Origin: Patescibacteria group bacterium
Lineage (GTDB): Bacteria > Patescibacteriota > Patescibacteriia > UBA2591 > CALHIP01
Assembly (NCBI GenBank): GCA_026417895.1
Contig: JAOACJ010000009.1
Coordinates: 2,128-66,127, forward strand
Length of the DNA stretch: 64,000 nt
Reading direction: 5' to 3'
Each line of letters starts with the position of its first letter. Position 1 is the first letter of the stretch. Positions 23,523-64,000 of this stretch are shown here, piece by piece. Both the position numbers and the translations under genes were made by a program. The notes beneath the pieces are model-generated. The model had not been told where the DNA came from, made no database searches, and was given only the letters and a program-made list of their open reading frames with translations.

Positions 23523-24932
23523 TTACTTTTCTTGCCAACGGGTAGGTGGCAAGCAAGTTGACTTGCCTGATTTCATATAGCCATAAGGTGATTCCTGATA
23601 AGGCGGACAAAGAGGTTCAAGACAGGAAAGAGCCGTCACCCAATAGTGATAATTGACGTTCGCAATAATACTTTTGTCTTCATAAGCACAAAGGCTTTCA
23701 CCACAAACATCCTCGGGTCTAATATTTTCGGCAATTCTTCGACACTGTGATAGTTCACAGTCATTTCTATTGTCTTTATTTTTGACTGCTCGATAAACAT
23801 TATAGCCAACCGCCCCTCCGACTGGTAGCCATTGAACAGTTATTTCACCGCACTTTGAAGAGAGAATTGGCTCCAGAGGCTGTGATGGCGCGCATAAAAC
23901 CGTTGTCCCAGAAGCAGCATCACTGATTATTCCGTCACCGTTTAAATTCCAGGCTTGAACTTGATAGCGATATATCTGTCCACCGCTTAAACCAACATCT
24001 TGCCATTTACATATATCACCACTACAATCAACCTCATTGACAGAAATATTGGCAATAAGGACTCCATTTGTCTGTGGATTACACCCCTCACCCCGACAAC
24101 GATAAATTTTATAACCTTGAGCACACTTAGTTGGTGGTTGCCAATTTAAAAGTAAAGACTGACAATTTTGAGAAACCGATCTGACGGTTAAATTTCTTAC
24201 CTGATCAGGTGGATTTTTTAAACAATAACTTTGATAAGCACCGAGCCAGCCTAAACCAGCACCAGTAATTTGTGGATTATAAGTTGAACTCCAGGCAAAA
24301 CCTGTTAATTCTTTATGATTAAAACCAAAATCTTCTAAAGAAAGACCATAGCTAATACCGCCAGTTGTCTGTCCTCTTAATTTAATCCAGCCATCAGTTG
24401 TTGGTGACGACCAAACTACCTTTGCCCAACCAAAAACTTTTTTGCCTTCCCCAAGACAATTAGTGCCCGAAACATTTTCTCCTTTGCAAGCCCAAGGAGT
24501 AAAATTATCAGGTGAATTAATAAATGAACAAGTCCCACAACCTTCGCAAGTAATATAATTACTACAACTTGGACAATGAGCACACTTACAGGTCTCACCA
24601 AAACAAATCCAGCCAACATTTGGTGACCAACCATAACCAGAAATTTTATTGGTGGAAGAATCTAATTTTAAGCCGTAATTGATATTAGTTGGACAATTAT
24701 TTTCCGGTTGACCATCATTGTTATAGTCGTTATAACAATTCAAAGAAATCCAGCCAATGCCACCCGGATAACTGCCATCACTTCTACTCCAAAGCCAACC
24801 ACGGATGTTATCACTCCTCCCCCCTTGAACTAAATGTGGTTTTTCTATGTGAAAAACAAAAAATAATAAAGCAGCCGCCCCTATGAGACTTAAGATTAAT
24901 ATAAAAACTTGTCGTAACCAAATATTTTTCAT
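23523..24932 (-). CDS. Cys-rich secreted protein with C-terminal fibronectin-III-like domains
   Basis: N-terminal TM/signal segment, many Cys with Trp/Gly motifs (GWICFGETCKCAHCPSCSNYITCEGCGTC), and two FN3-like modules (GYKIYRCRG...YRYQVQAWN; ITVQWLPVGGAVGYNVYRA). Confidence 0.5.
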   Translation of the reverse strand: MKNIWLRQVFILILSLIGAAALLFFVFHIEKPHLVQGGRSDNIRGWLWSRSDGSYPGGIGWISLNCYNDYNNDGQPENNCPTNINYGLKLDSSTNKISGYGWSPNVGWICFGETCKCAHCPSCSNYITCEGCGTCSFINSPDNFTPWACKGENVSGTNCLGEGKKVFGWAKVVWSSPTTDGWIKLRGQTTGGISYGLSLEDFGFNHKELTGFAWSSTYNPQITGAGLGWLGAYQSYCLKNPPDQVRNLTVRSVSQNCQSLLLNWQPPTKCAQGYKIYRCRGEGCNPQTNGVLIANISVNEVDCSGDICKWQDVGLSGGQIYRYQVQAWNLNGDGIISDAASGTTVLCAPSQPLEPILSSKCGEITVQWLPVGGAVGYNVYRAVKNKDNRNDCELSQCRRIAENIRPEDVCGESLCAYEDKSIIANVNYHYWVTALSCLEPLCPPYQESPYGYMKSGKSTCLPPTRWQEK

Positions 24933-55983: not shown

Positions 55984-56005
55984 TTTTTGCAAATTTTGCT
56001 ATCTT
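55978..56005 (+). promoter_or_regulatory. candidate promoter TTGACT-16-TATCTT for the 56085 ORF
   Basis: ttgact at 55978-55983 and tatctt at 56000-56005. Two GC-rich hairpins at 56013-56070 follow in the leader. Confidence 0.35.
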
Positions 56006-56084
56006 GAAAATGTCGGGTTAGTCGCCTCTTCGGCGACTAAATCCAAGCCCGACCATCCGCTGTAAGCGGATGATGGAGGAAAAA

Positions 56085-57545
56085 ATGAGAAGTTTGACAT
56101 TGTTGATAATCTTGTTGCATTTTCTTGTTTTCTCGACTTCGGCGGCGACCGCGCAAACATGGTGGACTTACGAGGAACTCGGTAACGCCGCGCCTTGTAA
56201 GGGGATCGAAACGGAAAACGGATATGTCCATACAGGGGGCACCTTTAACGTGCCGGGTGGAGGTTGTTACTTAGCAAAAACCAATAAAGTAACTGGTGCT
56301 CTTGACTGGTATCAATATTATCCCAGTCTCTTTTTCGAGCAAAGTTGGGGATATGATTTAGTCCAGACGCCAGATGGTGGCTTCGCTATTCTTTCTACCG
56401 ATGATATGGGTTTCGGCAATGTCTTTAGACTGATTAGGACGAACCCGATGGGAGAAAGTTTGTGGAACAAATTGATTGCCCCTCAAAATCAAGCCGTTGC
56501 CGCTCCTTATTATCTCGTTCTTTTTTCGCCTGATTCTGGATTTATTATGGGCGGTCGAAACGATGGAGGAATTATTATGGCCCGGACGAACAAGTACGGG
56601 GAAACGCTATGGACGCGTCGCGGGGTGGCAAGAGAAAGTATTTACCGTTCTATGGAAGTCAGGGGCATAATAACAAAAACAAACACGATCATCTATCTCC
56701 TTGGTTTAGCAACTGTTGATTTGCCAACCGGACAAAGCATTTGGCGAAGTTTTTTGGCAACAATTAATGCTGCTGGACAAGTGATTAATAAAAGGGAATA
56801 TGTTGACGAGTGGCAAAGAATGGTGCATTTATATGGTCAAACCTTTTTTCAACTTGATAATTCCGGCTTTCTAATAGCTGGTATAAGAGGCGTCGCAAGT
56901 TCTAGTGCAAATCCTGTTGAATCAATTTTTGTTTTTCTTTTGAAAACCGACTCTTTGAAAAATGAACTCTGGAGAAAGATGTATTTTTTACCAAGCATAC
57001 ACAGTGATTTTTACAGGTGTGGCGTCGAAAAAGTTTGGCAAAATGAAAATACGATTAATATTGCGGTTTGCTTTTATAATTCGTCATTGTTCCCGAAAGG
57101 GGGAATTATTACCACGGATTTAGAGGGCAATTTTCTAAACTGTATCACCTACTCCCATCCGATTTATACCTATGTTTCTTTAAGAGACGCTATGAAAACA
57201 AGTGATGGACACGCAGTTTTAGCTGGACGCTCTCCTCCAGCCGGACCCCCAGCTTATGTGACCCTTCTTAAAACTCCTTTAAGTGGCATTAGTGAAAATT
57301 CTTTTTTCTCTTCCCAATTCTCTACTCTTAAAGTTTTTCCCAATCCAAGCACCGGCTTAGTTAATTTTCACTTGCCAACTGGGTACAACAGCAGCAAAGT
57401 AAAAATCTATGATGCCACCGGAAGAATAGTCAAGACATTCGAATTTCAAAATCAATTTCGGGTGAAACTTTCACCCGGCATCTATCTCTGTGAGACCGCC
57501 GCTGAGACCGACGCAAAATTTAAGATTATCATCCTGGGACAATAA
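56085..57545 (+). CDS. secreted repeat (beta-propeller-like) protein with a C-terminal T9SS sorting domain (Por_Secre_tail)
   Basis: RBS GGAGG five nt before the ATG at 56085, and a signal peptide. The C-terminal 70 aa (LKVFPNPSTGLVNFHLP...KVKIYDATGRIVKTFEF...SPGIYLCE...KFKIIILGQ) fit the T9SS CTD consensus. GC is well above neighbouring genes. Confidence 0.6.
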   Translation: MRSLTLLIILLHFLVFSTSAATAQTWWTYEELGNAAPCKGIETENGYVHTGGTFNVPGGGCYLAKTNKVTGALDWYQYYPSLFFEQSWGYDLVQTPDGGFAILSTDDMGFGNVFRLIRTNPMGESLWNKLIAPQNQAVAAPYYLVLFSPDSGFIMGGRNDGGIIMARTNKYGETLWTRRGVARESIYRSMEVRGIITKTNTIIYLLGLATVDLPTGQSIWRSFLATINAAGQVINKREYVDEWQRMVHLYGQTFFQLDNSGFLIAGIRGVASSSANPVESIFVFLLKTDSLKNELWRKMYFLPSIHSDFYRCGVEKVWQNENTINIAVCFYNSSLFPKGGIITTDLEGNFLNCITYSHPIYTYVSLRDAMKTSDGHAVLAGRSPPAGPPAYVTLLKTPLSGISENSFFSSQFSTLKVFPNPSTGLVNFHLPTGYNSSKVKIYDATGRIVKTFEFQNQFRVKLSPGIYLCETAAETDAKFKIIILGQ

Positions 57546-57567
57546 ATATTGTCCCAGGTTTTTTTAT
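57533..57567 (+). terminator. intrinsic terminator: 10-12 bp stem (cctgggacaa/ttgtcccagg) followed by T9
   Basis: Read directly. It sits at the stop codon of the 56085..57545 ORF, between the two convergent genes. Confidence 0.65.
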
Positions 57568-57568
57568 T

Positions 57569-59233
57569 TTATTCAGGAGTTCCTGGTCCGCAATCAAGCT
57601 GCCAATCACACATAGAACAAGTTTTTTGAACCGCTCGATAGAAAATACAAGATCGGCTATCGCCTACTTTACAACTATCACAACGAGGATGGCTATAGGC
57701 ACCGGCTATCTGGAAATCAGGTAAATAAGAAACACTACTTCGACAAGTACCCCAGAAAGTACCTCCTGTTAAACAAGGAGGTTGATCACAACTAATAGTC
57801 GAAGAACAACAAACCCCTCCGCAACATTGATACCCAGAAGGACAAGTTGGGGAGCTACAAACTTCTGTTGATAAATCTACACAATGTGGAATTGGACATT
57901 CGCTTGGATTATTTGGATCACAATTACAACACCGACCAGTACCGGTACAATAATAATAATCAGAATAAGGACAACATCTGTTTTCACAAGCGCAATGACC
58001 AGAAGAACAATTTGATACAGTACATGGAGTACCTGCTCGACAAAAACCACTAACACAAGTTTGAGTTCCGGGATAACTACATATACCAAAAGGAGGTGTA
58101 GGATCGTTGCCTTCACAGACCTCACCACAATTACGAATCCCATCACCACAAGAAGTAACCCAATTACCTGATAAGTTAGGATCACACTTTTGCCGGGCTA
58201 TGCTTGGATGGCAACTATTGGGAATTACAGAAGCATTACTATCATCACAATCACCTCTTTGAATTGGACCGGTGTAATTTGGGTAATTCAGTGTATCTGC
58301 TTCTCTATAACCCGTACCAAGTTGAAGACAATCGGTGTCTAATGGATACCGACCCGCGATTTCAAAATTACCGAGATATTTGTCTGAATCAGAGTCGCGT
58401 ACGCAAATTTTGGCAGGCATCCCATTAATACTATCTGGTCTATTCCAGCCAATCAAAATAGAAGGGTTGGTAGTATATGGACCAAAAACAATTTTTCCGG
58501 TGCCGGTCAAATCAACACCCTTGTTTGTTCCTTTGGTAGCAAAAATCAAATAAGCTGGTTTTTTCTCTTGCAAATTCAAAGGATTCACCCAGCCACTCAA
58601 GTTAACGGTGGCACTACCAATAACCAGTCGGCCAGTTTCTGTGCCAATAACTAAACCTCTCTCTGGACTCTGACTATCAGTAATTAAACTACAGGATTGA
58701 GTAAGAGTTAAATTACCAATCCATAATGGACAGGTGTTCTGAGGAGCCCAATCTAATTCCAGTTTATCTTCCCTCCCTTCTTTATTTTTTACCAAAAAAT
58801 TTGTCCAAACAATTTCTTCTATTTCTTTAGGTAAAACTATTTCCGCCTGCCAAACTGATTCTTTTTCATCATAGCTCATAAACATCTCTTTTTCAAAATC
58901 TGGACGGGCAATGATTTTAAATTTCACCTCCGCTAAACCAGCTGGGTCTTCAATTTTGATTTTCGCCCAAATTTTTTCACCGCCCTTTACTTCCCTTGGC
59001 CGTTTGGAAAAAATACCGCCTAAAAATTTTGGATAAACACCTGGTGCCGAGGAAACACGAAAAGCATATTCACTGTTTTTTGGTTTCTCGGTCGGTTCAA
59101 AATGGTTCAGTTTTTCAATCTCTTCTTCGCTCAAAACATAGTTTTTTTGTTTTTCGACTTTGGAAGTTTGCCAAAAGAATAAACCTAAAACAACGAAAAC
59201 CAAAATAATGATGAGAGGAATGATTTTTTTCAT
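57569..59233 (-). CDS. very Cys-rich secreted protein (Myxococcus-type CxDG...GExCDDGN-like repeat); last gene of the pilus operon
   Basis: N-terminal TM anchor. The C-terminal 250 aa are about 20% Cys (CGDGIRNCGEVCEGND..., CCGGVCCSS...). Confidence 0.5.
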   Translation of the reverse strand: MKKIIPLIIILVFVVLGLFFWQTSKVEKQKNYVLSEEEIEKLNHFEPTEKPKNSEYAFRVSSAPGVYPKFLGGIFSKRPREVKGGEKIWAKIKIEDPAGLAEVKFKIIARPDFEKEMFMSYDEKESVWQAEIVLPKEIEEIVWTNFLVKNKEGREDKLELDWAPQNTCPLWIGNLTLTQSCSLITDSQSPERGLVIGTETGRLVIGSATVNLSGWVNPLNLQEKKPAYLIFATKGTNKGVDLTGTGKIVFGPYTTNPSILIGWNRPDSINGMPAKICVRDSDSDKYLGNFEIAGRYPLDTDCLQLGTGYREADTLNYPNYTGPIQRGDCDDSNASVIPNSCHPSIARQKCDPNLSGNWVTSCGDGIRNCGEVCEGNDPTPPFGICSYPGTQTCVSGFCRAGTPCTVSNCSSGHCACENRCCPYSDYYYCTGTGRCCNCDPNNPSECPIPHCVDLSTEVCSSPTCPSGYQCCGGVCCSSTISCDQPPCLTGGTFWGTCRSSVSYLPDFQIAGAYSHPRCDSCKVGDSRSCIFYRAVQKTCSMCDWQLDCGPGTPE

Positions 59234-59263
59234 AGACGTAAAAGTTAATTTTTAATTTATTTT

Positions 59264-60676
59264 TTATCTCACTTTTAAGCCTGAAGTGTTTTGATCTGAA
59301 GCTAAATTGGTTGCCCGGCCCGGCCAATCAAAACGGGGAGCAATTAAACGATAGGAAACATTAATCGGGGCGGTGCCGTAAATGAGAAGTTGATTTTTTG
59401 TGGGTTGAAATTCATACCAAACTTGTGCCCGTCCCTCGGGTGTTAAATTCACCACTAAATCCTGCCAATTTTGACCAAAGGCTGTAATCTGGCGAAAAAG
59501 CCATAAATCAGAACCTTTTTCTGTTCGGTTAAAATCAATAGTCGCTAAATAAATTTGATTTTCAACTTCTGGCATTTGAAATTTGTCATTTGACATTTGT
59601 AAACGAAGTTTGCCCACCACCTCTTCTTTTAAACCAACCGTTGAATGGCCATAAGTGGCATATTTTATTCCTTCAATTTCATAAATTGGATCGATTTCAT
59701 TGACTAAGAGCTTACCGGCCGGGCTTAAGGTCATAATAGGCGTTGATCCATAACCACCATCTTTATACCAAGCAAAAGTGCCACTGTTAGTAACAAAACG
59801 GATCCATTCACCAGAGCCCTGAGAATACAATCCTAGATCAGTCCCGGAGATGGCGTTCGTACCTTTTTGAATAATACCATTTCTTACATTGATCGCGCCA
59901 TTGATATCTAATTTTTGAATCGGACTGGTTGTCCCGATGCCGACGTTGGTGCCGTTGTTAAACAAATTACTATCTGCGACCCAAGCACTTCCACTGTGTC
60001 TGAGCGTTTGACCAGTAGTTCCTGAAGGCAAAAGTCCTGAAGGTAGAGAACAAGTCAAGGTTGGTCCTACTGCCGTGACATATTGACCTGACGGACAAGC
60101 AGAAGGAAATGAAGTTAAACGTGCCCATGGAACCGAACCGCCTTGAAGAATGCCAGTCCACCTCACGTCACCACTTACATCTAATTTATATCCTGGACTG
60201 GTTGTTCCGATGCCGAGATTACCGGTCGGTAAAATTGTGAATCGATCATCGTTATTTGTTCCACTACCCCAGAAACGAAGGCTATTATTTGATTTATTCA
60301 CATAAATAGCCCAATGATCATTAGTCCCTGTTCCATATTTAAGTTGCAACTCTGGATTTTCATTGGTGTCAGTATCAGTAATTCGCAAACGACAAGTTGT
60401 GCCACTTGGAGCAGTAAGTTCCATTCTTTCGGCTGGATTGACCGTCCCGATTCCTAATTGGCCATTAAATAAGACATTACCTGATTGAAGTGTTCCCGGT
60501 AAAGAACCTTGTAACCAAACCGGTCCGGGTAATTGGCCTTGTGGTGGTGGTTGGGTTGGCTCCTGCCAAGTCTGAGCCAAAACTGCAGGAATGGCTAAAA
60601 AGAAAAGTGATAAAGCCAGTAAAAAGAGTCGACCAAATAACCGGCTTTTTTTAAAGAAGAAAGTTGCTTTTTTCAT
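59264..60676 (-). CDS. secreted tail-fibre-like repeat protein in the PilY1 position of the minor-pilin operon
   Basis: Signal peptide (…AVLAQTW). Repeated motifs GQLGIGTVNPAERMEL, GNLGIGTTSPGYKLDVSGD and GTNVGIGTTSPIQKLDINGA are typical of phage tail-fibre / beta-helical adhesin repeats. Confidence 0.5.
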   Translation of the reverse strand: MKKATFFFKKSRLFGRLFLLALSLFFLAIPAVLAQTWQEPTQPPPQGQLPGPVWLQGSLPGTLQSGNVLFNGQLGIGTVNPAERMELTAPSGTTCRLRITDTDTNENPELQLKYGTGTNDHWAIYVNKSNNSLRFWGSGTNNDDRFTILPTGNLGIGTTSPGYKLDVSGDVRWTGILQGGSVPWARLTSFPSACPSGQYVTAVGPTLTCSLPSGLLPSGTTGQTLRHSGSAWVADSNLFNNGTNVGIGTTSPIQKLDINGAINVRNGIIQKGTNAISGTDLGLYSQGSGEWIRFVTNSGTFAWYKDGGYGSTPIMTLSPAGKLLVNEIDPIYEIEGIKYATYGHSTVGLKEEVVGKLRLQMSNDKFQMPEVENQIYLATIDFNRTEKGSDLWLFRQITAFGQNWQDLVVNLTPEGRAQVWYEFQPTKNQLLIYGTAPINVSYRLIAPRFDWPGRATNLASDQNTSGLKVR

Positions 60677-60702
60677 AGGCGTAAAAGTTAATTTTTAATT
60701 TA

Positions 60703-61365
60703 TCAATAGAAAAAATATTTAGGAAAAAAACTTTTGATTTTGCGCTGAAAATTTTTAAAAAAGCCTGACACCTCCACTTCAAAACCACTCGGAATAGGAT
60801 TAGGTGCATTAATGATAAAATTAACATCAGAAGAGTTAGGATTGCAAATTTTTAATCGATGATAACGATCTGAACGAATTTCATAATTGACTAAAGGTGG
60901 GACAGTGGTGACAAAATCTAAGGGATCTATCTCTCCGCTTCTCTGCCAGGAAAAAAGAAGTACCTCTCCCCCAGGTGAAGAAGCGTTAACGCTGAGAGAG
61001 GCCGGATAGGCAAGATTTAAATCAAGATCTAATTGAAACGATTGATTGGTCGAAAGACTGACGGACCATGGCACAGTATTTGTGATCACGTTTACTAGTC
61101 CTAAAAGATAAGAAGAGTTATTGGGAAGGGTGTCAGAGTCAGTAAGGGTTAATGGATCAACTTTTTCTTGGTTAATTTTATAAAATGCTCTTTCAACACC
61201 ACTTTCGGCCGCATAATAAGCCAATTCAGAAAAAGAAGTTGCCCGAACAATCTGTCCTTGACGAACCAAGACTTCACTCATCATTAAACCAGCGGCTAAA
61301 AGACTGCCTAAAATTAAGACGACCAGAAGTAAAGAAACGCCTGATTGAGATTGACTAAAGTTCAT
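60703..61365 (-). CDS. PilX-like minor pilin / pilus assembly protein
   Basis: N-terminal hydrophobic helix (SGVSLLLVVLILGSLLAAGLMMSEV) of PilX_N type, in the position after a PilW-like gene. Confidence 0.45.
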   Translation of the reverse strand: MNFSQSQSGVSLLLVVLILGSLLAAGLMMSEVLVRQGQIVRATSFSELAYYAAESGVERAFYKINQEKVDPLTLTDSDTLPNNSSYLLGLVNVITNTVPWSVSLSTNQSFQLDLDLNLAYPASLSVNASSPGGEVLLFSWQRSGEIDPLDFVTTVPPLVNYEIRSDRYHRLKICNPNSSDVNFIINAPNPIPSGFEVEVSGFFKNFQRKIKSFFPKYFFY

Positions 61366-61429
61366 TTTTTTATTTTATCATTTTTTAACAATTTTTGCAA
61401 TGAGAGTTTGAATTTTTGTGTTCTTTTAT

Positions 61430-62002
61430 CTATTTTCTTTCCCCATATCTTTGAATGACGGTTTGTTGAAGGCTAAAAACTTGACCTTTGGCTTTTAATT
61501 CTAAAACAATTGTTACCCGTGGCTGAATTCTTGTTGTCGCATTAGAGGTAAAGGGGTCTTGGGAAGGGGAAATATAAAATTTAAGATCCGTCACTTCAAC
61601 CTCACTACTCGTTAACGGCTGGTCCCCGCTACCACCAACATTTTTCATTATCTTATTACTACTGAAGCTGTAAACCACTGTCTGATTGGTTTGATAATTA
61701 ATGAGTGCCAAAGTAGAAGTGGGTGAAGGAATTTGAGAGCCATAATGCAGATAATCGACTAAACCAGCGCGAATGTCTTTGGCGATGATAGAGAGTAAAT
61801 AATTGGCCTCTTGTTGTAAACTAGAAAGTTCGGCTGATTTTCTTTGTGAGCCAATAGAAAAAGTATAAATACCAGTTGCCGCTAAAAAGACGAAAGCGAT
61901 GATACTCACTGAAGTTAACATTTCAACTAAAGTAAAGCTAGATTTGTTGGTAAATTTTTCTTTTTTAGTTTTTGGATTATTGAATTTATTTTTCATCGCC
62001 AA
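61430..62002 (-). CDS. type IV pilin-like protein (PilW-like minor pilin)
   Basis: Prepilin cleavage/methylation motif SSFTLVEMLTSVSIIAFVFLAA. Confidence 0.55.
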   Translation of the reverse strand: MAMKNKFNNPKTKKEKFTNKSSFTLVEMLTSVSIIAFVFLAATGIYTFSIGSQRKSAELSSLQQEANYLLSIIAKDIRAGLVDYLHYGSQIPSPTSTLALINYQTNQTVVYSFSSNKIMKNVGGSGDQPLTSSEVEVTDLKFYISPSQDPFTSNATTRIQPRVTIVLELKAKGQVFSLQQTVIQRYGERK

Positions 62003-62487
62003 TTAGTCAGAATTTGTTGAAGGTTAATTGTCTGGTCGCCTGCTTTTGTTCGCCAAAGAACCTGCGAAGAAATTCTTATTTCATTGGGCGAAAGACTTGT
62101 AATCTGGAGTAACCGTTTATAAATCGTATTAGGTGAAGGACAGTGAAAATACCGGCCACTAGAAAGACAGAGACCACAATTTGTGCAATCTTTAATCGTT
62201 GAACCGCCAGAAAAAGAAGCTTGTGTTAAACTGGTTGAATCAGCATTGGCAATAAAACTTCCGGCACTTAAACCATAATTCCAATCATTGAGAGCCAACC
62301 AATTGCTGTCGCGAATTGCCCTCATTACCTCCATTCCCTCCCGTGCCAAACTGGTAGCAAGAAGTGCTTCACCACTTCTTCCGCCAATAGAATAAGAATA
62401 AGAGGCTAAAGCGATGATGCCTAATAAAGCTGTGACAATCAGAGTTGCCGCGACAATTGTCTCCACTAAAGTAAACCCCTTTTTCAT
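61993..62487 (-). CDS. type IV pilin-like protein (PilV-like minor pilin)
   Basis: MKKGFTLVETIVAATLIVTALLGII from the ATG at 62487. Confidence 0.55.
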   Translation of the reverse strand: MKKGFTLVETIVAATLIVTALLGIIALASYSYSIGGRSGEALLATSLAREGMEVMRAIRDSNWLALNDWNYGLSAGSFIANADSTSLTQASFSGGSTIKDCTNCGLCLSSGRYFHCPSPNTIYKRLLQITSLSPNEIRISSQVLWRTKAGDQTINLQQILTNWR

Positions 62488-62508
62488 AATATAAATTAAA
62501 TTTGACAT

Positions 62509-63000
62509 TTAATCACTCACCTCAATTTGTCCGGAAAGGCAATTAATTTTTACTTTCTTTTGTTCATTTGTCCGACTGTCTTGAAGGGTGATAGTTTGAT
62601 TGGTTGAACAAGCGACGTTATTGACGTAAAGACTGGCTAAAGGCAAGGCGAAAACTTGATGTTGCGAAGAAAATGGATTGAAAAAAATATTTTTGGAAAG
62701 AGAGTAATTAAAAATTGCTTCACCACTATCATATAAATAGTCATTGTTAGTAGCAAAAAAAATATAGGTGTTGTTATTGGGCAAATAAACACCATAACCA
62801 CGGGGCAAACTACTGTCCATTTGTTGAGCACTTAAAGCCAAACTTTGGGCTTGTTTTAAAATACTGGCTAAACGCCGAGCATCTAATAAAACTAATTCTT
62901 TCCTTTCTTTAATCCGATAATTAACATAACCAATCCCTAAAATTAAAACAGTAATTGTCATCACCACCATCATTTCGATAAAAGTAAAGCCTCTTCTCAT
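62509..63000 (-). CDS. type IV pilin-like protein (FimT/GspH-like minor pilin)
   Basis: MRRGFTFIEMMVVMTITVLILGIGYVNY. Confidence 0.55.
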   Translation of the reverse strand: MRRGFTFIEMMVVMTITVLILGIGYVNYRIKERKELVLLDARRLASILKQAQSLALSAQQMDSSLPRGYGVYLPNNNTYIFFATNNDYLYDSGEAIFNYSLSKNIFFNPFSSQHQVFALPLASLYVNNVACSTNQTITLQDSRTNEQKKVKINCLSGQIEVSD

Positions 63001-63002
63001 AT

Positions 63003-63812
63003 TTATATTTTTCCAAAAAAAGACAAAAAAATCAAATCACCAAAAAATAGGGTCATTACGCCGCCAACAGCTAAAAATGGGCCAAGAGGAATTTTAGAGG
63101 TCAACTTTTTTTGATGAGTGATGAGAAGAATTAAAGAGGCAAAACCACCGAGTAGATAAGAAATGACTAAAACAACTAAAATTTTTGGCCAAGCAAAGGT
63201 TAAACCCAATAGCAAACCTAAACGTAAATCACCTTCGCCAATTCCTTTTTTCGCCGTCAAAAGATATTGAAGAAGAAAAAACCCAAAACCAAAAAAACCG
63301 CCGAGCAGAAGAGTAGTTAAGTGATAAGTTGTTGAGTTAATGAGTAAAAGGTTAAGGAGAAAAATGACAATGGTTGCTGGAATAACAACAGTATCTTCGA
63401 TTAACATATATTTCAAATCATAGACAAAAATAAAAACCATCACTGTTAGAAAAAGCCAATCGCGAAGAAGGAAAATTGAAAATTGAAAATTGGAAATTGG
63501 AAATTGGGGATAGATGGATAAAAATTGATGAGATAATTTCAAAGAGGCCAATAAAAATAAAGCGCCTGTTGTCAGTTCAATTAATGGATATTGCCAGGAA
63601 ATTTTTGCTTGACAATAGCGGCACCTACCCTTTAAAAATAAAAAGGAAAAAAGCGGAATTAAATCAAAAAAAGAAAGCCGGTGTTGACAAGCCGGACAAA
63701 AGGAATAGCCAAAAAGGCTCTTTTTTTGTGACAAACGATAAATCAGGCAATTTAAAAAACTGCCAATGGCTAAACCAAACAAAAACGAGAAAAGGGCAAA
63801 TAAGAAAACCAT
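63003..63812 (-). CDS. pilD: prepilin peptidase (A24 family)
   Basis: N-terminal helix, zinc-binding CPACQH...CRYCQ box and the A24 TM core. Confidence 0.85.
   Translation of the reverse strand: MVFLFALFSFLFGLAIGSFLNCLIYRLSQKKSLFGYSFCPACQHRLSFFDLIPLFSFLFLKGRCRYCQAKISWQYPLIELTTGALFLLASLKLSHQFLSIYPQFPISNFQFSIFLLRDWLFLTVMVFIFVYDLKYMLIEDTVVIPATIVIFLLNLLLINSTTYHLTTLLLGGFFGFGFFLLQYLLTAKKGIGEGDLRLGLLLGLTFAWPKILVVLVISYLLGGFASLILLITHQKKLTSKIPLGPFLAVGGVMTLFFGDLIFLSFFGKI
63471..63505. repeat. heptanucleotide tandem repeat (GAAAATT x3, GGAAATT x2) inside pilD
   Basis: Read directly. On the coding strand it encodes QFPISNFQFSIF. Coordinates are +/-1. Confidence 0.85.
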
Positions 63813-64000
63813 GAAATCTTAAAATTATAGCAATTTTAATAAAAAAAACAATTATTTCACTTCTTTAACGGAAATAACTGGTGATAAAAATGAAAAAATT
63901 TTCTACCTTATCCCAACTGGTGTTGCGTAGCGGTTACCTGCGGGATAGCCACCGGTATCTTTCTCTAAACAAAAATAGATGTTGTAGTTATCGCCTGCGG

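What the first reader, a model, noticed from the sequence alone, without database searches (positions are those of the whole stretch)
57569..63812. Type IV pilus minor-pilin operon whose PilY1 (tip adhesin) slot holds a non-homologous tail-fibre-like protein, followed by a Cys-rich secreted protein
Seven co-directional, tightly packed minus-strand genes are pilD, then FimT/GspH-like, PilV-like, PilW-like and PilX-like minor pilins, then the 470-aa secreted protein 59264..60676, then the 554-aa protein 57569..59233. The first five follow the canonical fimU-pilV-pilW-pilX order, after which PilY1 is expected. The 470-aa protein instead carries three copies of a G(N/Q)(L/V)GIGTTSPxxKLD(V/I)xG motif, typical of phage tail-fibre / beta-helix adhesins. 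The next protein has an extremely Cys-rich C-terminal half (CGDGIRNCGEVCEGND and related), implying an extracellular, disulfide-bonded product. This looks like an undescribed pilus-tip adhesin module. It is plausibly the host-recognition device of an epibiotic or small-genome bacterium.
Basis: partly seen in the sequence, partly recalled or inferred. Interest (0 to 1): 0.78.

Follow-up and report, generated by a model that had tools for sequence, protein, structure and literature searches.

The report
Tail-fibre-like adhesin in pilus operon
A small-genome Patescibacteria bacterium ends its type IV pilus tip-protein operon with a phage-tail-fibre-like adhesin and a cysteine-rich surface protein; several relatives repeat or fuse this arrangement, so it is probably a pilus-linked device for grabbing host cells, though no physical link is shown.

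Summary
On the minus strand lie a major-pilin 3' end, pilD, four minor-pilin-like genes, a 470-aa secreted protein and a 554-aa protein with 40 cysteines. They are tightly packed and end at a hairpin.

The 470-aa protein is not PilY1. It has no Pfam hit and no propeller or vWA domain. Its repeats are the capping-loop motif of trimeric beta-helix fibres: it matches Bdellovibrio MAT fibres in the PDB and phage tail-fibre PHROGs. It ends in a conserved 155-aa beta-sandwich domain (CTD) that resembles phage tail-fibre tips only distantly.

The link to pili recurs:
- Two other Patescibacteria contigs place a CTD-bearing fibre directly after four minor pilins.
- A third places two fibres a few genes downstream.
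- A fourth has a fibre inside a complete pilus cluster.
- One Saccharibacteria protein fuses a minor-pilin N-terminus to the fibre repeats and CTD.
- Other family genes lie near pilMNO, but about half of the family stands alone.

The Cys-rich protein belongs to a tiny family that is not otherwise pilus-linked.

Best reading: a MAT-like or tail-fibre-like adhesin working with, and possibly mounted on, the pilus tip. Tip location is inferred, not shown. I rate it a new variant of a known kind, of moderately high interest.

The parts
63903..63998 (-). 3' end of a major pilin gene that runs off the window edge
   Evidence: The translation ...DNYNIYFCLEKDTGGYPAGNRYATPVGIR* matches the C-terminus of the 141-aa major pilin that precedes pilD in L001 (phmmer E 3e-7).
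63003..63812 (-). Prepilin peptidase PilD (269 aa)
   Evidence: Pfam A24_N_bact E 5.9e-32 and Peptidase_A24 E 2.2e-13. Orthologues are found in L001 (E 4e-98) and L021 (E 5e-70).
62509..63000 (-). Minor pilin 1, GspH/FimU-like (163 aa), with prepilin motif RRG|FTFIEM
   Evidence: N_methyl E 1.5e-6. GspH TIGR01708 E 1.5e-7, N-terminal part only. Orthologues in L001, L019 and L021.
61993..62508 (-). Minor pilin 2, PilV/GspI-like (171 aa), with motif KKG|FTLVET
   Evidence: PilV TIGR02523 E 1.5e-5, below its cut-off. Orthologues in L001, L019 and L021.
61430..62002 (-). Minor pilin 3, PilW/GspJ/ComGF-like (190 aa), with motif KSS|FTLVEM (Ser, not Gly, at position -1)
   Evidence: ComGF NF041002 E 3.8e-6 and N_methyl E 1.8e-4. 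Orthologues in L001, L019, L021 and L026.
60703..61365 (-). Minor pilin 4, PilX/GspK-like (220 aa), with a non-canonical hydrophobic N-terminus
   Evidence: PilX_N hits only at E 0.08. Orthologues in the same position in L001 (E 4e-75), L021, L019 and L026. Only three other close homologues exist in 5.8 billion proteins.
60668..60703 (-). Copy 1 of a 36-nt leader (ATAAATTAAAAATTAACTTTTACGCCTATGAAAAAA). It spans the mp4 stop codon to codon 3 of the fibre gene.
   Evidence: The two copies differ by one mismatch in 36 nt. The 22-mer core occurs exactly twice in the window, against 0.04 expected.
59264..60676 (-). 470-aa secreted fibre protein. It has a Sec-type signal (aa 1-35, predicted cleavage VLA|QT), a Pro-rich N-terminal motif, three beta-helix capping-loop repeats (aa 72, 152, 243), and the CTD.
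   Evidence: phmmer matches Bd2133 fibre 8OND at E 4e-8. Foldseek top hits are 8OND, 8ONC, 8ONB, 8OJN and 8ONF. Tail-fibre phrog_9942 hits at E 1e-11. There is no Pfam hit. The homologue search returned 1585 hits.
59267..59734 (-). Conserved C-terminal beta-sandwich domain (CTD, aa about 315-470) of the fibre protein
59225..59260 (-). Copy 2 of the 36-nt leader, immediately before and into the Cys-rich gene
57569..59233 (-). 554-aa protein. It has an N-terminal membrane anchor or signal, a conserved domain of about 110 aa (FRVSS..GVYPKF..G.FSKRP ... WTNF ... LDW), a beta-rich segment, and a Cys-rich C-terminal half (37 Cys in aa 300-554).
   Evidence: Sequence and Cys counts are. It is an orphan in the word-based search. 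It has 17 relatives among 1.84 billion representatives; P0122 matches at 33% identity over the full length, the rest over the N-terminal 160-280 aa only. It has no Pfam, NCBIfam, PHROG or PDB sequence hit.
57533..57558 (.). An 11-bp GC-rich hairpin between the convergent genes. It is the likely bidirectional terminator that closes the operon.
   Evidence: Terminator scan gives CCTGGGACAATAAATATTGTCCCAGG followed by a T-run. It lies 10 nt downstream of the stop of the 554-aa gene.
56070..57545 (+). Convergent neighbour: a 491-aa secreted repeat protein (beta-propeller-like) with a C-terminal Por_Secre_tail Ig-like domain. It is a possible partner, not part of the operon.
   Evidence: Por_Secre_tail E 1e-8 (Pfam) and 2.4e-9 (TIGR04183). 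Internal repeats and a homologue in L092, which lies beside cys554-like and fibre-like genes. Por_Secre_tail proteins also flank fibre-CTD genes in L003, L095 and L101-L103.

Best explanation
The locus is a Patescibacteria type IV pilus operon in the order major pilin, PilD, four core minor pilins. Its distal cargo is a tail-fibre-like adhesin plus a disulfide-rich surface protein.

Proposed mechanism, with the basis of each step:
1. PilD processes the prepilins. The four minor pilins form the priming and tip complex. This follows from established T4aP and T2SS knowledge and was not tested here.
2. The 470-aa protein is exported by Sec (sequence inspection).
3. It trimerises into an interdigitated beta-helix shaft like the Bdellovibrio MAT fibres and phage tail fibres. 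Homology is shown; the trimer is inferred.
4. It carries a C-terminal beta-sandwich tip domain that binds a host-cell surface ligand, probably a glycan. This rests on fold analogy only.
5. Its N-terminal end is held at or near the pilus tip complex, filling the role that PilY1 plays in Gram-negative T4aP. Pilus extension and retraction then brings the epibiont onto its host. This is inferred from recurrent synteny and from a pilin-fibre fusion.
6. The 554-aa Cys-rich protein is a membrane-anchored extracellular partner of unknown role.

Sub-claim confidences:
- MAT or tail-fibre-type surface adhesin: about 0.8.
- Functionally coupled to the pilus: about 0.6.
- Physically mounted on the pilus tip: about 0.3.
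For: Identity of the fibre:
- phmmer to 8OND Bd2133 gives E 4e-8.
- The Foldseek top 11 PDB hits are all Bdellovibrio MAT fibre beta-helices.
- Tail-fibre PHROGs hit at E 1e-11.
- The motif equals the MAT capping-loop consensus V-G-G/N-pi-x-x-P-x-x-x-L (PMC10769870).

The tip domain:
- The CTD model is confident.
- Its nearest folds are C-terminal domains of phage tailspikes and tail fibres, plus lectins.

Pilus coupling:
- L001 has major pilin, pilD, four minor pilins, then a fibre with the CTD.
- L019 has four minor pilins, then a 2276-aa fibre with the same CTD.
- L026 has mp3, mp4, two genes, then two fibres, the second with the CTD.
- L021 has a 1752-aa fibre between pilD and the four minor pilins, inside a complete T4P cluster.
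- L094 has a fibre with the CTD one gene upstream of pilMNO.
- L007 and L101-L103 have fibres 6-7 kb upstream of pilM.
- P0104 (locus L010) is a minor-pilin N-terminus (GFTLIE; ComGE/ComGF-like) followed by fibre repeats and the CTD. It is 38% identical to the window protein over 209 aa.

Operon structure:
- Gene gaps range from -10 to 64 nt.
- The only strong hairpin lies after the last gene.

The organism is a Patescibacterium. In this group T4P mediate host binding (PMC11623550).
Against: - There is no direct evidence of a fibre-pilus contact. No multimer model could be run.
- Roughly half of the CTD-bearing genes with readable flanks have no pilus gene within 8-10 kb: L002, L003, L016, L024, L095 and L096.
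- In L021 the fibre lies upstream of the minor pilins, not downstream, so there is no strict 'slot'.
- In the closest PilX-like relative (66% identity, L099) the next gene is an IS200 transposase, not a fibre.
- The window protein has a Sec signal and no known retention motif.
- The CTD is the most conserved part of the family, which is unusual for a receptor-binding tip.
- The shared 36-nt leader before the two distal genes might mark separate regulation.
- The full-length AF2 monomer model is poor, at pLDDT 54.
Confidence: 0.45

Rival explanations
1. The fibre is a free-standing cell-surface fibre, not mounted on the pilus. It is held on the envelope by an uncleaved signal anchor or by its conserved N-terminal motif. 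It is merely co-regulated with pili, because both act in host attachment: the pilus makes first contact and retracts, and the short fibres then lock on at close range.
For: - Most family members have the same Sec-type N-terminus plus the conserved (A)W[TQ]xP..PP..N motif, and many stand alone.
- Bdellovibrio MAT fibres are displayed on the cell surface through an N-terminal domain, independently of pili (PMC10769870).
- The TM7x model proposes pilus contact followed by close-range surface adhesins (PMC11623550).
- Fibre genes recurrently sit beside other surface proteins, such as Por_Secre_tail, HINT and Cys-rich proteins.
Against: - The pilin-fibre fusion P0104 shows that the module can be a pilus subunit.
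- A position immediately after the PilX-like gene in three independent lineages is hard to obtain by loose co-regulation alone.
- No cell-wall or membrane retention motif is recognisable after signal cleavage.
Confidence: 0.35
2. The two distal proteins are released cargo of the pilus system. This would parallel TcpF of Vibrio cholerae or CofJ of ETEC, which are soluble factors encoded in the pilus operon and exported or presented by it.
For: - Both proteins have N-terminal export signals and lie at the operon's distal end.
- The precedent for T4bP-secreted proteins comes from my own knowledge.
Against: - Patescibacteria lack an outer membrane, so a pilus-driven secretion step is not needed after Sec (general knowledge).
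- A trimeric beta-helix fibre is an adhesin architecture, not that of a soluble effector.
- The 554-aa protein has a single N-terminal hydrophobic segment with no clear cleavage site, which suggests a membrane anchor.
- The structural similarity to TcpB and CofB is at the level of a generic beta-sandwich.
Confidence: 0.08
3. The adjacency is accidental. On this reading the fibre gene is a phage-derived or horizontally acquired cassette that landed next to the pilus genes and has no functional link to them.
For: - GC is higher (0.39-0.42) across 56-62 kb than in the window overall (0.344).
- The repeats match phage tail-fibre PHROGs.
- A 36-nt direct repeat brackets the fibre ORF exactly.
- An IS200 transposase sits at this junction in a close relative.
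Against: - The same arrangement recurs in distant lineages: L019, L026, L021 and L094.
- No phage genes are nearby; the neighbours are pilus and housekeeping genes.
- The CTD was not found in IMG/VR contigs.
- The protein starts with a secretion signal, not a virion-attachment domain.
Confidence: 0.05
4. The 470-aa protein is a highly diverged true PilY1 homologue.
For: Only its position after the PilX-like gene and its Sec-type signal.
Against: - No hit to the PilY1/PilC, vWA or any propeller family at E<=1.
- The predicted and homologous folds are a beta-helix plus a beta-sandwich, not a propeller.
Confidence: 0.02

Closest known systems
Bdellovibrio bacteriovorus MAT (mosaic adhesive trimer) fibres, NS74 subgroup (Bd2133, Bd1334; PDB 8OND, 8OML; PMC10769870)
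   Same: - The same beta-helix repeat with the capping-loop motif VG(G/N)xxxPxxxL, supported by sequence and fold matches.
- The architecture is a shaft plus a non-S74 beta-sandwich C-terminal tip.
- It is used by a bacterium that attaches to other bacteria.
- Many sequence relatives of the window protein carry the alternative S74 chaperone end (PF13884), as the S74-group MATs do.
   Different: - It is much shorter, with 3 repeats and 470 aa.
- It has no large MAT N-terminal domain, only a signal peptide and a Pro-rich motif.
- It occurs in monoderm-type Patescibacteria.
- It is encoded inside a type IV pilus minor-pilin operon. The MAT authors raised a pilus connection only as a speculation.
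PilY1 / PilC tip-associated adhesin of Gram-negative type IVa pili (fimU-pilVWXY1E operon)
   Same: - Its gene position is directly after the PilX-like minor pilin.
- It has a Sec signal rather than a prepilin signal.
- It is a large non-pilin protein plausibly presented by the four core minor pilins.
   Different: - There is no sequence or fold homology: no C-terminal beta-propeller and no vWA domain.
- It is predicted to be a trimeric fibre, whereas PilY1 is monomeric.
- No PilE-like fifth minor pilin follows.
Trimeric tip minor pilins CofB/TcpB of type IVb pili and their operon-encoded partners CofJ/TcpF
   Same: - They set a precedent for a homotrimeric, beta-sandwich-tipped protein at a type IV pilus tip, and for a secreted protein encoded in the pilus operon that binds it (own knowledge).
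[quoted passage not shown]
   Different: - The window protein itself has no pilin N-terminus.
- The shaft is a beta-helix of tail-fibre type.
- There is no sequence relationship.
PilX1 / PilX2 putative tip adhesins of Nanosynbacter lyticus TM7x (PMC11623550)
   Same: - They come from the same superphylum.
- They are adhesin candidates encoded with the minor pilins.
- They lack a PilD-type signal.
- They are proposed to bind host glycans.
   Different: - There the adhesin domain (jelly-roll or 7-bladed propeller) is fused to PilX.
- Here PilX-like is small (220 aa), and a separate fibre gene follows it.
Phage tail fibres and tailspikes (for example PHROG 9942; the C-terminal domain of cyanophage Pam1 tailspike 7EEA)
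   Same: - The repeat region hits tail-fibre PHROGs.
- The CTD's nearest folds are phage tail-fibre or tailspike C-terminal domains.
   Different: - It is a cellular gene with a secretion signal.
- There is no phage context.
- The CTD was not detected in IMG/VR.

Membership tests
PilY1 / PilC (type IVa pilus tip adhesin) | C-terminal PilY1/PilC beta-propeller domain (Pfam Neisseria_PilC/PilY1 family) | tested here: not met
   No Pfam or NCBIfam family hits at E<=1. The CTD model is a beta-sandwich.
PilY1 / PilC (type IVa pilus tip adhesin) | N-terminal vWA or another adhesion domain | tested here: not met
   No vWA hit. The N-terminal and middle region matches trimeric beta-helix fibres.
PilY1 / PilC (type IVa pilus tip adhesin) | Encoded directly after pilX in the minor-pilin operon, with a Sec-type signal | tested here: met
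   There is a 26-nt gap after the PilX-like gene. The N-terminus MKK...LAIPAVLA|QT was judged by inspection.
PilY1 / PilC (type IVa pilus tip adhesin) | Physical association with the minor-pilin tip complex | not testable with these tools
   No multimer modelling or experiment was available.
MAT-type / tail-fibre-type trimeric beta-helix fibres | Beta-helix repeats with the capping-loop motif V-G-G/N-pi-x-x-P-x-x-x-L | tested here: met
   There are three copies, at aa 72, 152 and 243. phmmer to 8OND gives E 4e-8. The Foldseek top hits are MAT fibres. The motif definition comes from PMC10769870.
MAT-type / tail-fibre-type trimeric beta-helix fibres | Homotrimeric intertwined assembly | not testable with these tools
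   Only monomer prediction was available. The monomer shaft is modelled poorly (pLDDT below 50), as expected for an obligate trimer but not proof of one.
MAT-type / tail-fibre-type trimeric beta-helix fibres | C-terminal S74 intramolecular chaperone or a substituting tip domain (NS74) | tested here: met
   There is no S74 domain. A distinct beta-sandwich CTD takes its place. Sequence relatives with the same repeats carry PF13884 instead.
MAT-type / tail-fibre-type trimeric beta-helix fibres | The conserved Bdellovibrio MAT N-terminal anchoring domain | not tested
   PDB entries cover only the C-terminal parts. The window protein has only about 35 residues between its signal peptide and first repeat, so a full MAT N-domain cannot be present (inference).
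Phage tail fibre (as part of a virion or prophage) | Located among phage structural genes | tested here: not met
   The neighbours are pilD, pilins, MiaB-like and ribosomal genes, tRNA synthetases, gyrB and dnaE. The CTD is absent from the IMG/VR scan.
Modular or trimeric tip minor pilins (class III signal peptide plus a grafted C-terminal module) | Prepilin N-terminus (G|FTLIE plus a hydrophobic helix) | tested here: not met
   The window protein has a Sec-type signal. The feature is met by homologue P0104 / L010.
Type IV pilus core minor-pilin set (GspH/I/J/K-like) | Four consecutive pilin-like genes, three with prepilin motifs and a fourth with a PilX/GspK-type N-terminus, next to pilD | tested here: met
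   The individual family assignments are below the curated cut-offs.

The most novel reading that the evidence does not exclude
In many Patescibacteria the type IV pilus tip carries a phage-tail-fibre-like (MAT-like) homotrimeric beta-helix fibre with a dedicated beta-sandwich tip domain. The fibre is either docked non-covalently on the four minor pilins, as in this window, L001 and L019, or fused to a minor pilin, as in P0104. This would be a third, non-homologous solution to the 'PilY1 problem'. It would also be the long-sought host-recognition device of uncultivated epibionts. The Cys-rich protein and the Por_Secre_tail propeller protein would then be further parts of the same attachment module.
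Probability: 0.3. Interest if true: 0.8.

Novelty: new variant of a known kind. Interest (0 to 1): 0.62.

Why it matters
How ultrasmall Patescibacteria find and hold their hosts is largely unknown. Type IV pili are implicated in the few cultured Saccharibacteria, but the receptor-binding component is only guessed at.

A widespread, recognisable fibre-plus-CTD module that is genetically tied to pilus tip genes gives a concrete, testable candidate for host specificity in uncultivated lineages. It could be expressed, used for binding assays or host 'fishing', and tracked in metagenomes.

It would also link three systems that were treated separately: phage tail fibres, the prey-recognition fibres of predatory Bdellovibrio, and type IV pilus tip adhesins.

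Tried and rejected
- PilY1, vWA or propeller homology: searched with Pfam and NCBIfam at E<=1. Nothing was found, so this was rejected.
- Full-length AF2 monomer of the 470-aa protein: the model was poor (pLDDT 54). I used it only for local Foldseek hits, then modelled the CTD alone.
- Word-indexed homologue search for the 554-aa protein: it returned only the protein itself. The exhaustive phmmer search found 17 relatives.
- Metagenome locus scan with the 16-sequence alignment A3: it failed because no conserved stretch was available. I repeated it with A4 and obtained 5 loci, none with pilins.
- CTD scan of IMG/VR viral contigs: no relatives.
- PDB profile search for the 554-aa family: nothing below E 0.5.
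- Homologue search for the PilX-like gene, meant to sample 'what fills the slot' in relatives: only three homologues, two on contigs of 1.2-1.5 kb. It was uninformative beyond the IS200 neighbour.
- The afdb50 fold library was not available.
- The Shufflon_N hit of P0049 was judged spurious. The hit is weak and the N-terminus is a Sec-type signal, not a pilin.
- tRNA and Rfam scans of the window found nothing.
- The promoter scan is at background level, so it does not settle the transcription units.
- Literature searches found no description of a fibre in a Patescibacteria pilus operon. The library is incomplete, so this is weak evidence of novelty.

Full report
**1. What is there**

The ORF list reproduces the finding exactly. 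On the minus strand lie 63003-63812 (269 aa), 62509-63000 (163 aa), 61993-62508 (171 aa), 61430-62002 (190 aa), 60703-61365 (220 aa), 59264-60676 (470 aa) and 57569-59233 (554 aa). Spacers between them are 2, 0, -10, 64, 26 and 30 nt.

The first gene is a prepilin peptidase (A24_N_bact E 6e-32, Peptidase_A24 E 2e-13). The next three have class III signal motifs: RRG|FTFIEM, KKG|FTLVET and KSS|FTLVEM. They give weak, below-cut-off hits to GspH (1.5e-7), PilV (1.5e-5) and ComGF (3.8e-6). The fourth has only a marginal PilX_N hit (E 0.08).

The FimU/V/W/X labels are therefore plausible by order and by N-terminal type, but they are not proven by score.

Upstream of pilD, at the window edge, sits the last stretch of a major pilin (63903-63998). 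It matches the major pilin that precedes pilD in the closest related locus (E 3e-7).

The only strong hairpin in 57-64 kb lies directly after the 554-aa gene (57533-57558). It separates that gene from a convergent 491-aa gene.

The rest of the window is ordinary chromosomal housekeeping, including gyrB, dnaE, tRNA synthetases and an M16 peptidase. It has no tRNA or Rfam hits.

The proteins are identical to entries N2259_01510, _01515 and _01520 of an NCBI MAG called 'Patescibacteria group bacterium'.

**2. The 470-aa protein**

It has no Pfam or NCBIfam family at E<=1. The refutation criterion 'clear PilY1, vWA or propeller homology' is therefore not met.

Its three G-x-[LV]-G-I-G-T...P...[LM] motifs (aa 72, 152, 243) are not new. 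A sequence search of the PDB hits the Bdellovibrio bacteriovorus fibre Bd2133 (8OND, E 4e-8) and Bd3182 (8OJN).

Even from a poor monomer model (pLDDT 54), the eleven best Foldseek matches in the PDB are all Bdellovibrio MAT fibre beta-helices. The paper describing those fibres defines the motif V-G-G/N-pi-x-x-P-x-x-x-L as the capping loops of an intertwined trimeric beta-helix. It divides the family into members ending in an S74 chaperone and 'NS74' members ending in other tip domains (PMC10769870).

The same region hits phage tail-fibre PHROGs (phrog_9942, E 1e-11).

The repeat is very widespread. There are 1585 hits in the protein collection. Genome loci come from Patescibacteria, DPANN archaea, Bacteroidota, Bdellovibrionota, Planctomycetota and others. 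Many relatives end in Peptidase_S74 (PF13884).

**3. The C-terminal domain**

Alignment of the near-full-length relatives shows that the last 155 or so residues form a well-conserved domain. Its consensus is GKL.V.TIDP.Y.I.G.KYATY...G.KEE..G...IDF...E.GSDLWLF.Q.TDFG.NW..LVV.LTP.G...WYE...VSYRL.APRFD..W.N.

The domain sits at the extreme C-terminus of 56 of the 120 best hits, after anywhere from one to dozens of fibre repeats.

Modelled alone with 50 sequences, it is confident (pLDDT 80, core above 90). It is an all-beta sandwich with one helix.

- Against predicted viral structures, the best matches are phage tail and tail-fibre proteins (E 1e-5 to 6e-4, TM about 0.45-0.5, about 15% identity).
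- A pattern scan of IMG/VR found no sequence relative of the CTD.

So the whole protein has the build of a short tail fibre or an NS74-type MAT fibre: a signal peptide, a short Pro-rich N-terminal motif, a beta-helix shaft and a beta-sandwich tip. The tip domain has no named family.

**4. Is the pilus context more than chance?**

- L001 carries the closest homologue (P0002, 36% identical by BLASTP over 92% of the query). Its order is major pilin, pilD, four minor pilins (each E 1e-61 to 1e-75 to the window's), then the fibre.
- L019 is an unrelated Patescibacteria MAG. It has GspH-, PilV-, PilW- and PilX-like pilins followed by a 2276-aa fibre ending in the same CTD.
- L026 has mp3, mp4, two further genes, a 1270-aa fibre, and then a 759-aa fibre with the CTD, all on one strand.
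- L021 has a complete pilus cluster (an ATPase-like gene, a PilC-like gene, two pilins, pilD, and four minor pilins). A 1752-aa fibre lies between pilD and the minor pilins. This one ends in a coiled coil, not the CTD.
- L094 has a 291-aa fibre with the CTD one gene upstream of pilM-pilN-pilO.
- L007 and L101-L103 have fibres with the CTD 6-7 kb upstream of pilM.

The most telling case is P0104, from a Saccharibacteria MAG (L010). It is a single 423-aa protein with a canonical prepilin N-terminus (NRG|FTLIELL; ComGE/ComGF-like). That is followed by a pilin-sized region, two fibre repeats and the CTD. It is 38% identical to the window protein over its last 209 residues. It is a 'Rosetta-stone' fusion. 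It shows that the fibre tip can be carried by a pilus subunit, with the CTD distal to the pilin.

Against this, L002, L003, L016, L024, L095 and L096 show no pilus gene within 8-10 kb.

My rough estimate (inference) starts from the chance that a random gene lies directly after a minor-pilin cluster, which is on the order of 0.2% per genome. Three independent lineages out of about fourteen evaluable ones is therefore far beyond chance. The link is still facultative.

**5. The 554-aa protein**

- It has one N-terminal hydrophobic segment.
- It has a conserved domain of about 110 residues (FRVSS..GVYPKF..G.FSKRP ... WTNF ... LDW).
- It has a beta-rich stretch.
- Its C-terminal half holds 37 of the protein's 40 cysteines.

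The word-indexed search finds only itself. An exhaustive phmmer search of 1.84 billion representatives finds 17 relatives. One (P0122) matches along the full length at 33% identity. The others share only the N-terminal 160-280 residues and have different Cys-rich ends.

It has no Pfam, NCBIfam, PHROG or PDB sequence match.

Five metagenome loci with relatives show no pilins nearby. In one, L092, three genes sit together: a cys554-like gene, a homologue of the window's 491-aa gene (E 3e-9), and the start of a fibre gene with the family's N-terminal motif. That repeats the window's trio.

It is most simply read as a membrane-anchored, disulfide-stabilised extracellular protein. It may belong with the fibre rather than with the pilus as such.

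**6. How it probably works**

Shown:
- The gene content and order.
- Homology of the shaft to trimeric beta-helix fibres.
- A conserved beta-sandwich tip.
- Recurrent pilus linkage, including a fusion.

From established knowledge: the four core minor pilins prime assembly and end up at the pilus tip. In Gram-negative T4aP they present PilY1. In Saccharibacteria, T4P mediate host binding, and enlarged PilX proteins are the adhesin candidates (PMC11623550).

Inferred: the fibre is exported by Sec, trimerises, and is presented at or near the pilus tip through its N-terminal end. The CTD contacts a host-surface ligand, and retraction pulls the cells together.

My confidence by sub-claim:
- About 0.8 that it is a MAT or tail-fibre-type surface adhesin.
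- About 0.6 that it functions together with the pilus.
- About 0.3 that it is physically on the tip.

The main rival (0.35) is a free cell-surface fibre that is only co-regulated with pili. Minor rivals are released cargo like TcpF or CofJ (0.08), chance or HGT adjacency (0.05), and a diverged PilY1 (0.02).

**7. Caveats**

- The 'PilY1 slot' is an analogy borrowed from Gram-negative operons. In L021 the fibre sits on the other side of the minor pilins.
- In the closest PilX-like relative (66% identity) an IS200 transposase follows instead.
- A 36-nt block, identical but for one base, runs from just after each preceding stop codon into the third codon of both the fibre gene and the Cys-rich gene (60668-60703 and 59225-59260). 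It occurs nowhere else in the window. A related leader precedes the fibre gene in L001.
- That block could be a shared translation or regulatory signal, a promoter, or a recombination scar that brackets the fibre ORF. It means co-transcription with the pilin genes should not be assumed.
- GC is 0.39-0.42 across 56-62 kb, against 0.344 for the window.

**8. Novelty and score**

The repeat and the fibre architecture are known from MAT fibres and phage tail fibres, and the pilus genes are ordinary. Three things are new, as far as the searchable literature shows:
- A named-by-nobody CTD family that is common in Patescibacteria.
- Its recurrent placement in type IV pilus minor-pilin operons.
- Its fusion to a pilin.

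I classify it as a new variant of a known kind, with interest 0.62. It is a concrete, testable candidate for the host-recognition element of uncultivated epibionts, but its key mechanistic claim is still inferential.

Noticed in passing
window 60668-60703 (-) and 59225-59260 (-): A 36-nt block (ATAAATTAAAAATTAACTTTTACG[C/T]CTATGAAAAAA) is repeated immediately upstream of, and into, the start of both the fibre gene and the Cys-rich gene. It appears nowhere else in the window (0.04 matches expected). It has no Shine-Dalgarno sequence and no sigma-70 hit. As direct repeats, the two copies bracket the fibre ORF exactly. A related leader precedes the fibre gene in L001.
   Followed up: partly
window 56070-57545 (+); also L092 1198-2769, L003 13517-15205, L095 13286-14757, L101 9106-10701, L103 9093-10706: The convergent 491-aa neighbour is an internally repeated, beta-propeller-like secreted protein with a T9SS-type Por_Secre_tail domain. 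That is odd for a Patescibacterium, which has no T9SS or outer membrane. Por_Secre_tail proteins, often with Kelch propellers, flank fibre-CTD genes in at least five other loci. L092 repeats the trio of cys554-like, 491-like and fibre genes.
   Followed up: partly
window 56000-62000: GC content is 0.39-0.42 across the 491-aa, Cys-rich, fibre and distal pilin genes, against 0.344 for the whole window. This may reflect amino-acid composition or horizontal acquisition.
   Followed up: no
L099 844-1455: In the closest relative of the PilX-like gene (66% identity), the next gene is an IS200/IS605-type Y1 transposase rather than a fibre gene. The contig is only 1.5 kb, so what follows is unknown.
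   Followed up: no
window 60560-60676 (fibre aa 1-60) and homologues P0002, P0027, P0047, P0072, P0016, P0032, P0048, P0060: After the signal peptide, many family members share a mature N-terminal motif, roughly (A)W[TQ]xP[ST]xxPPxGN..P[LI]N...Q.K.G.L. The 491-aa neighbour also starts with AQTW after its signal. This may be a sorting or docking motif.
   Followed up: no
window 59687-59692 (fibre aa 329-330): An Asp-Pro pair (in TIDP) at the start of the CTD is invariant in 50 sequences. It could be structural or a self-cleavage site, analogous to the processing of S74-ended fibres.
   Followed up: no
L026 1006-11005 and L021 7169-12427: L026 has three large Cys-rich secreted proteins after its PilX-like gene. 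Two of them are fibres, and two of the three end in FACCQ or FACCK. L021 has a 1752-aa fibre with a coiled-coil end inside a complete pilus cluster. Fibres of several tip types therefore associate with Patescibacteria pilus genes.
   Followed up: partly
window 23523-24932 (-): A 469-aa fn3-domain protein is homologous (E 9e-17) to the 378-aa gene that lies between the fibre gene and pilM in L094. In the window it sits next to a 974-aa M23-peptidase / DUF2341 / Big_13 surface protein.
   Followed up: no
window 61430-62002 (-): The PilW/ComGF-like minor pilin has Ser instead of the canonical Gly at position -1 of the prepilin cleavage motif (KSS|FTLVEM), and its ORF starts at TTG. Its L001 orthologue has Gly.
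   Followed up: no
L002 101-1700: VKOR and DsbA-type disulfide-bond formation genes lie about 8 kb upstream of a stand-alone fibre-CTD gene. This may bear on how Cys-rich surface proteins are oxidised in these organisms.
   Followed up: no
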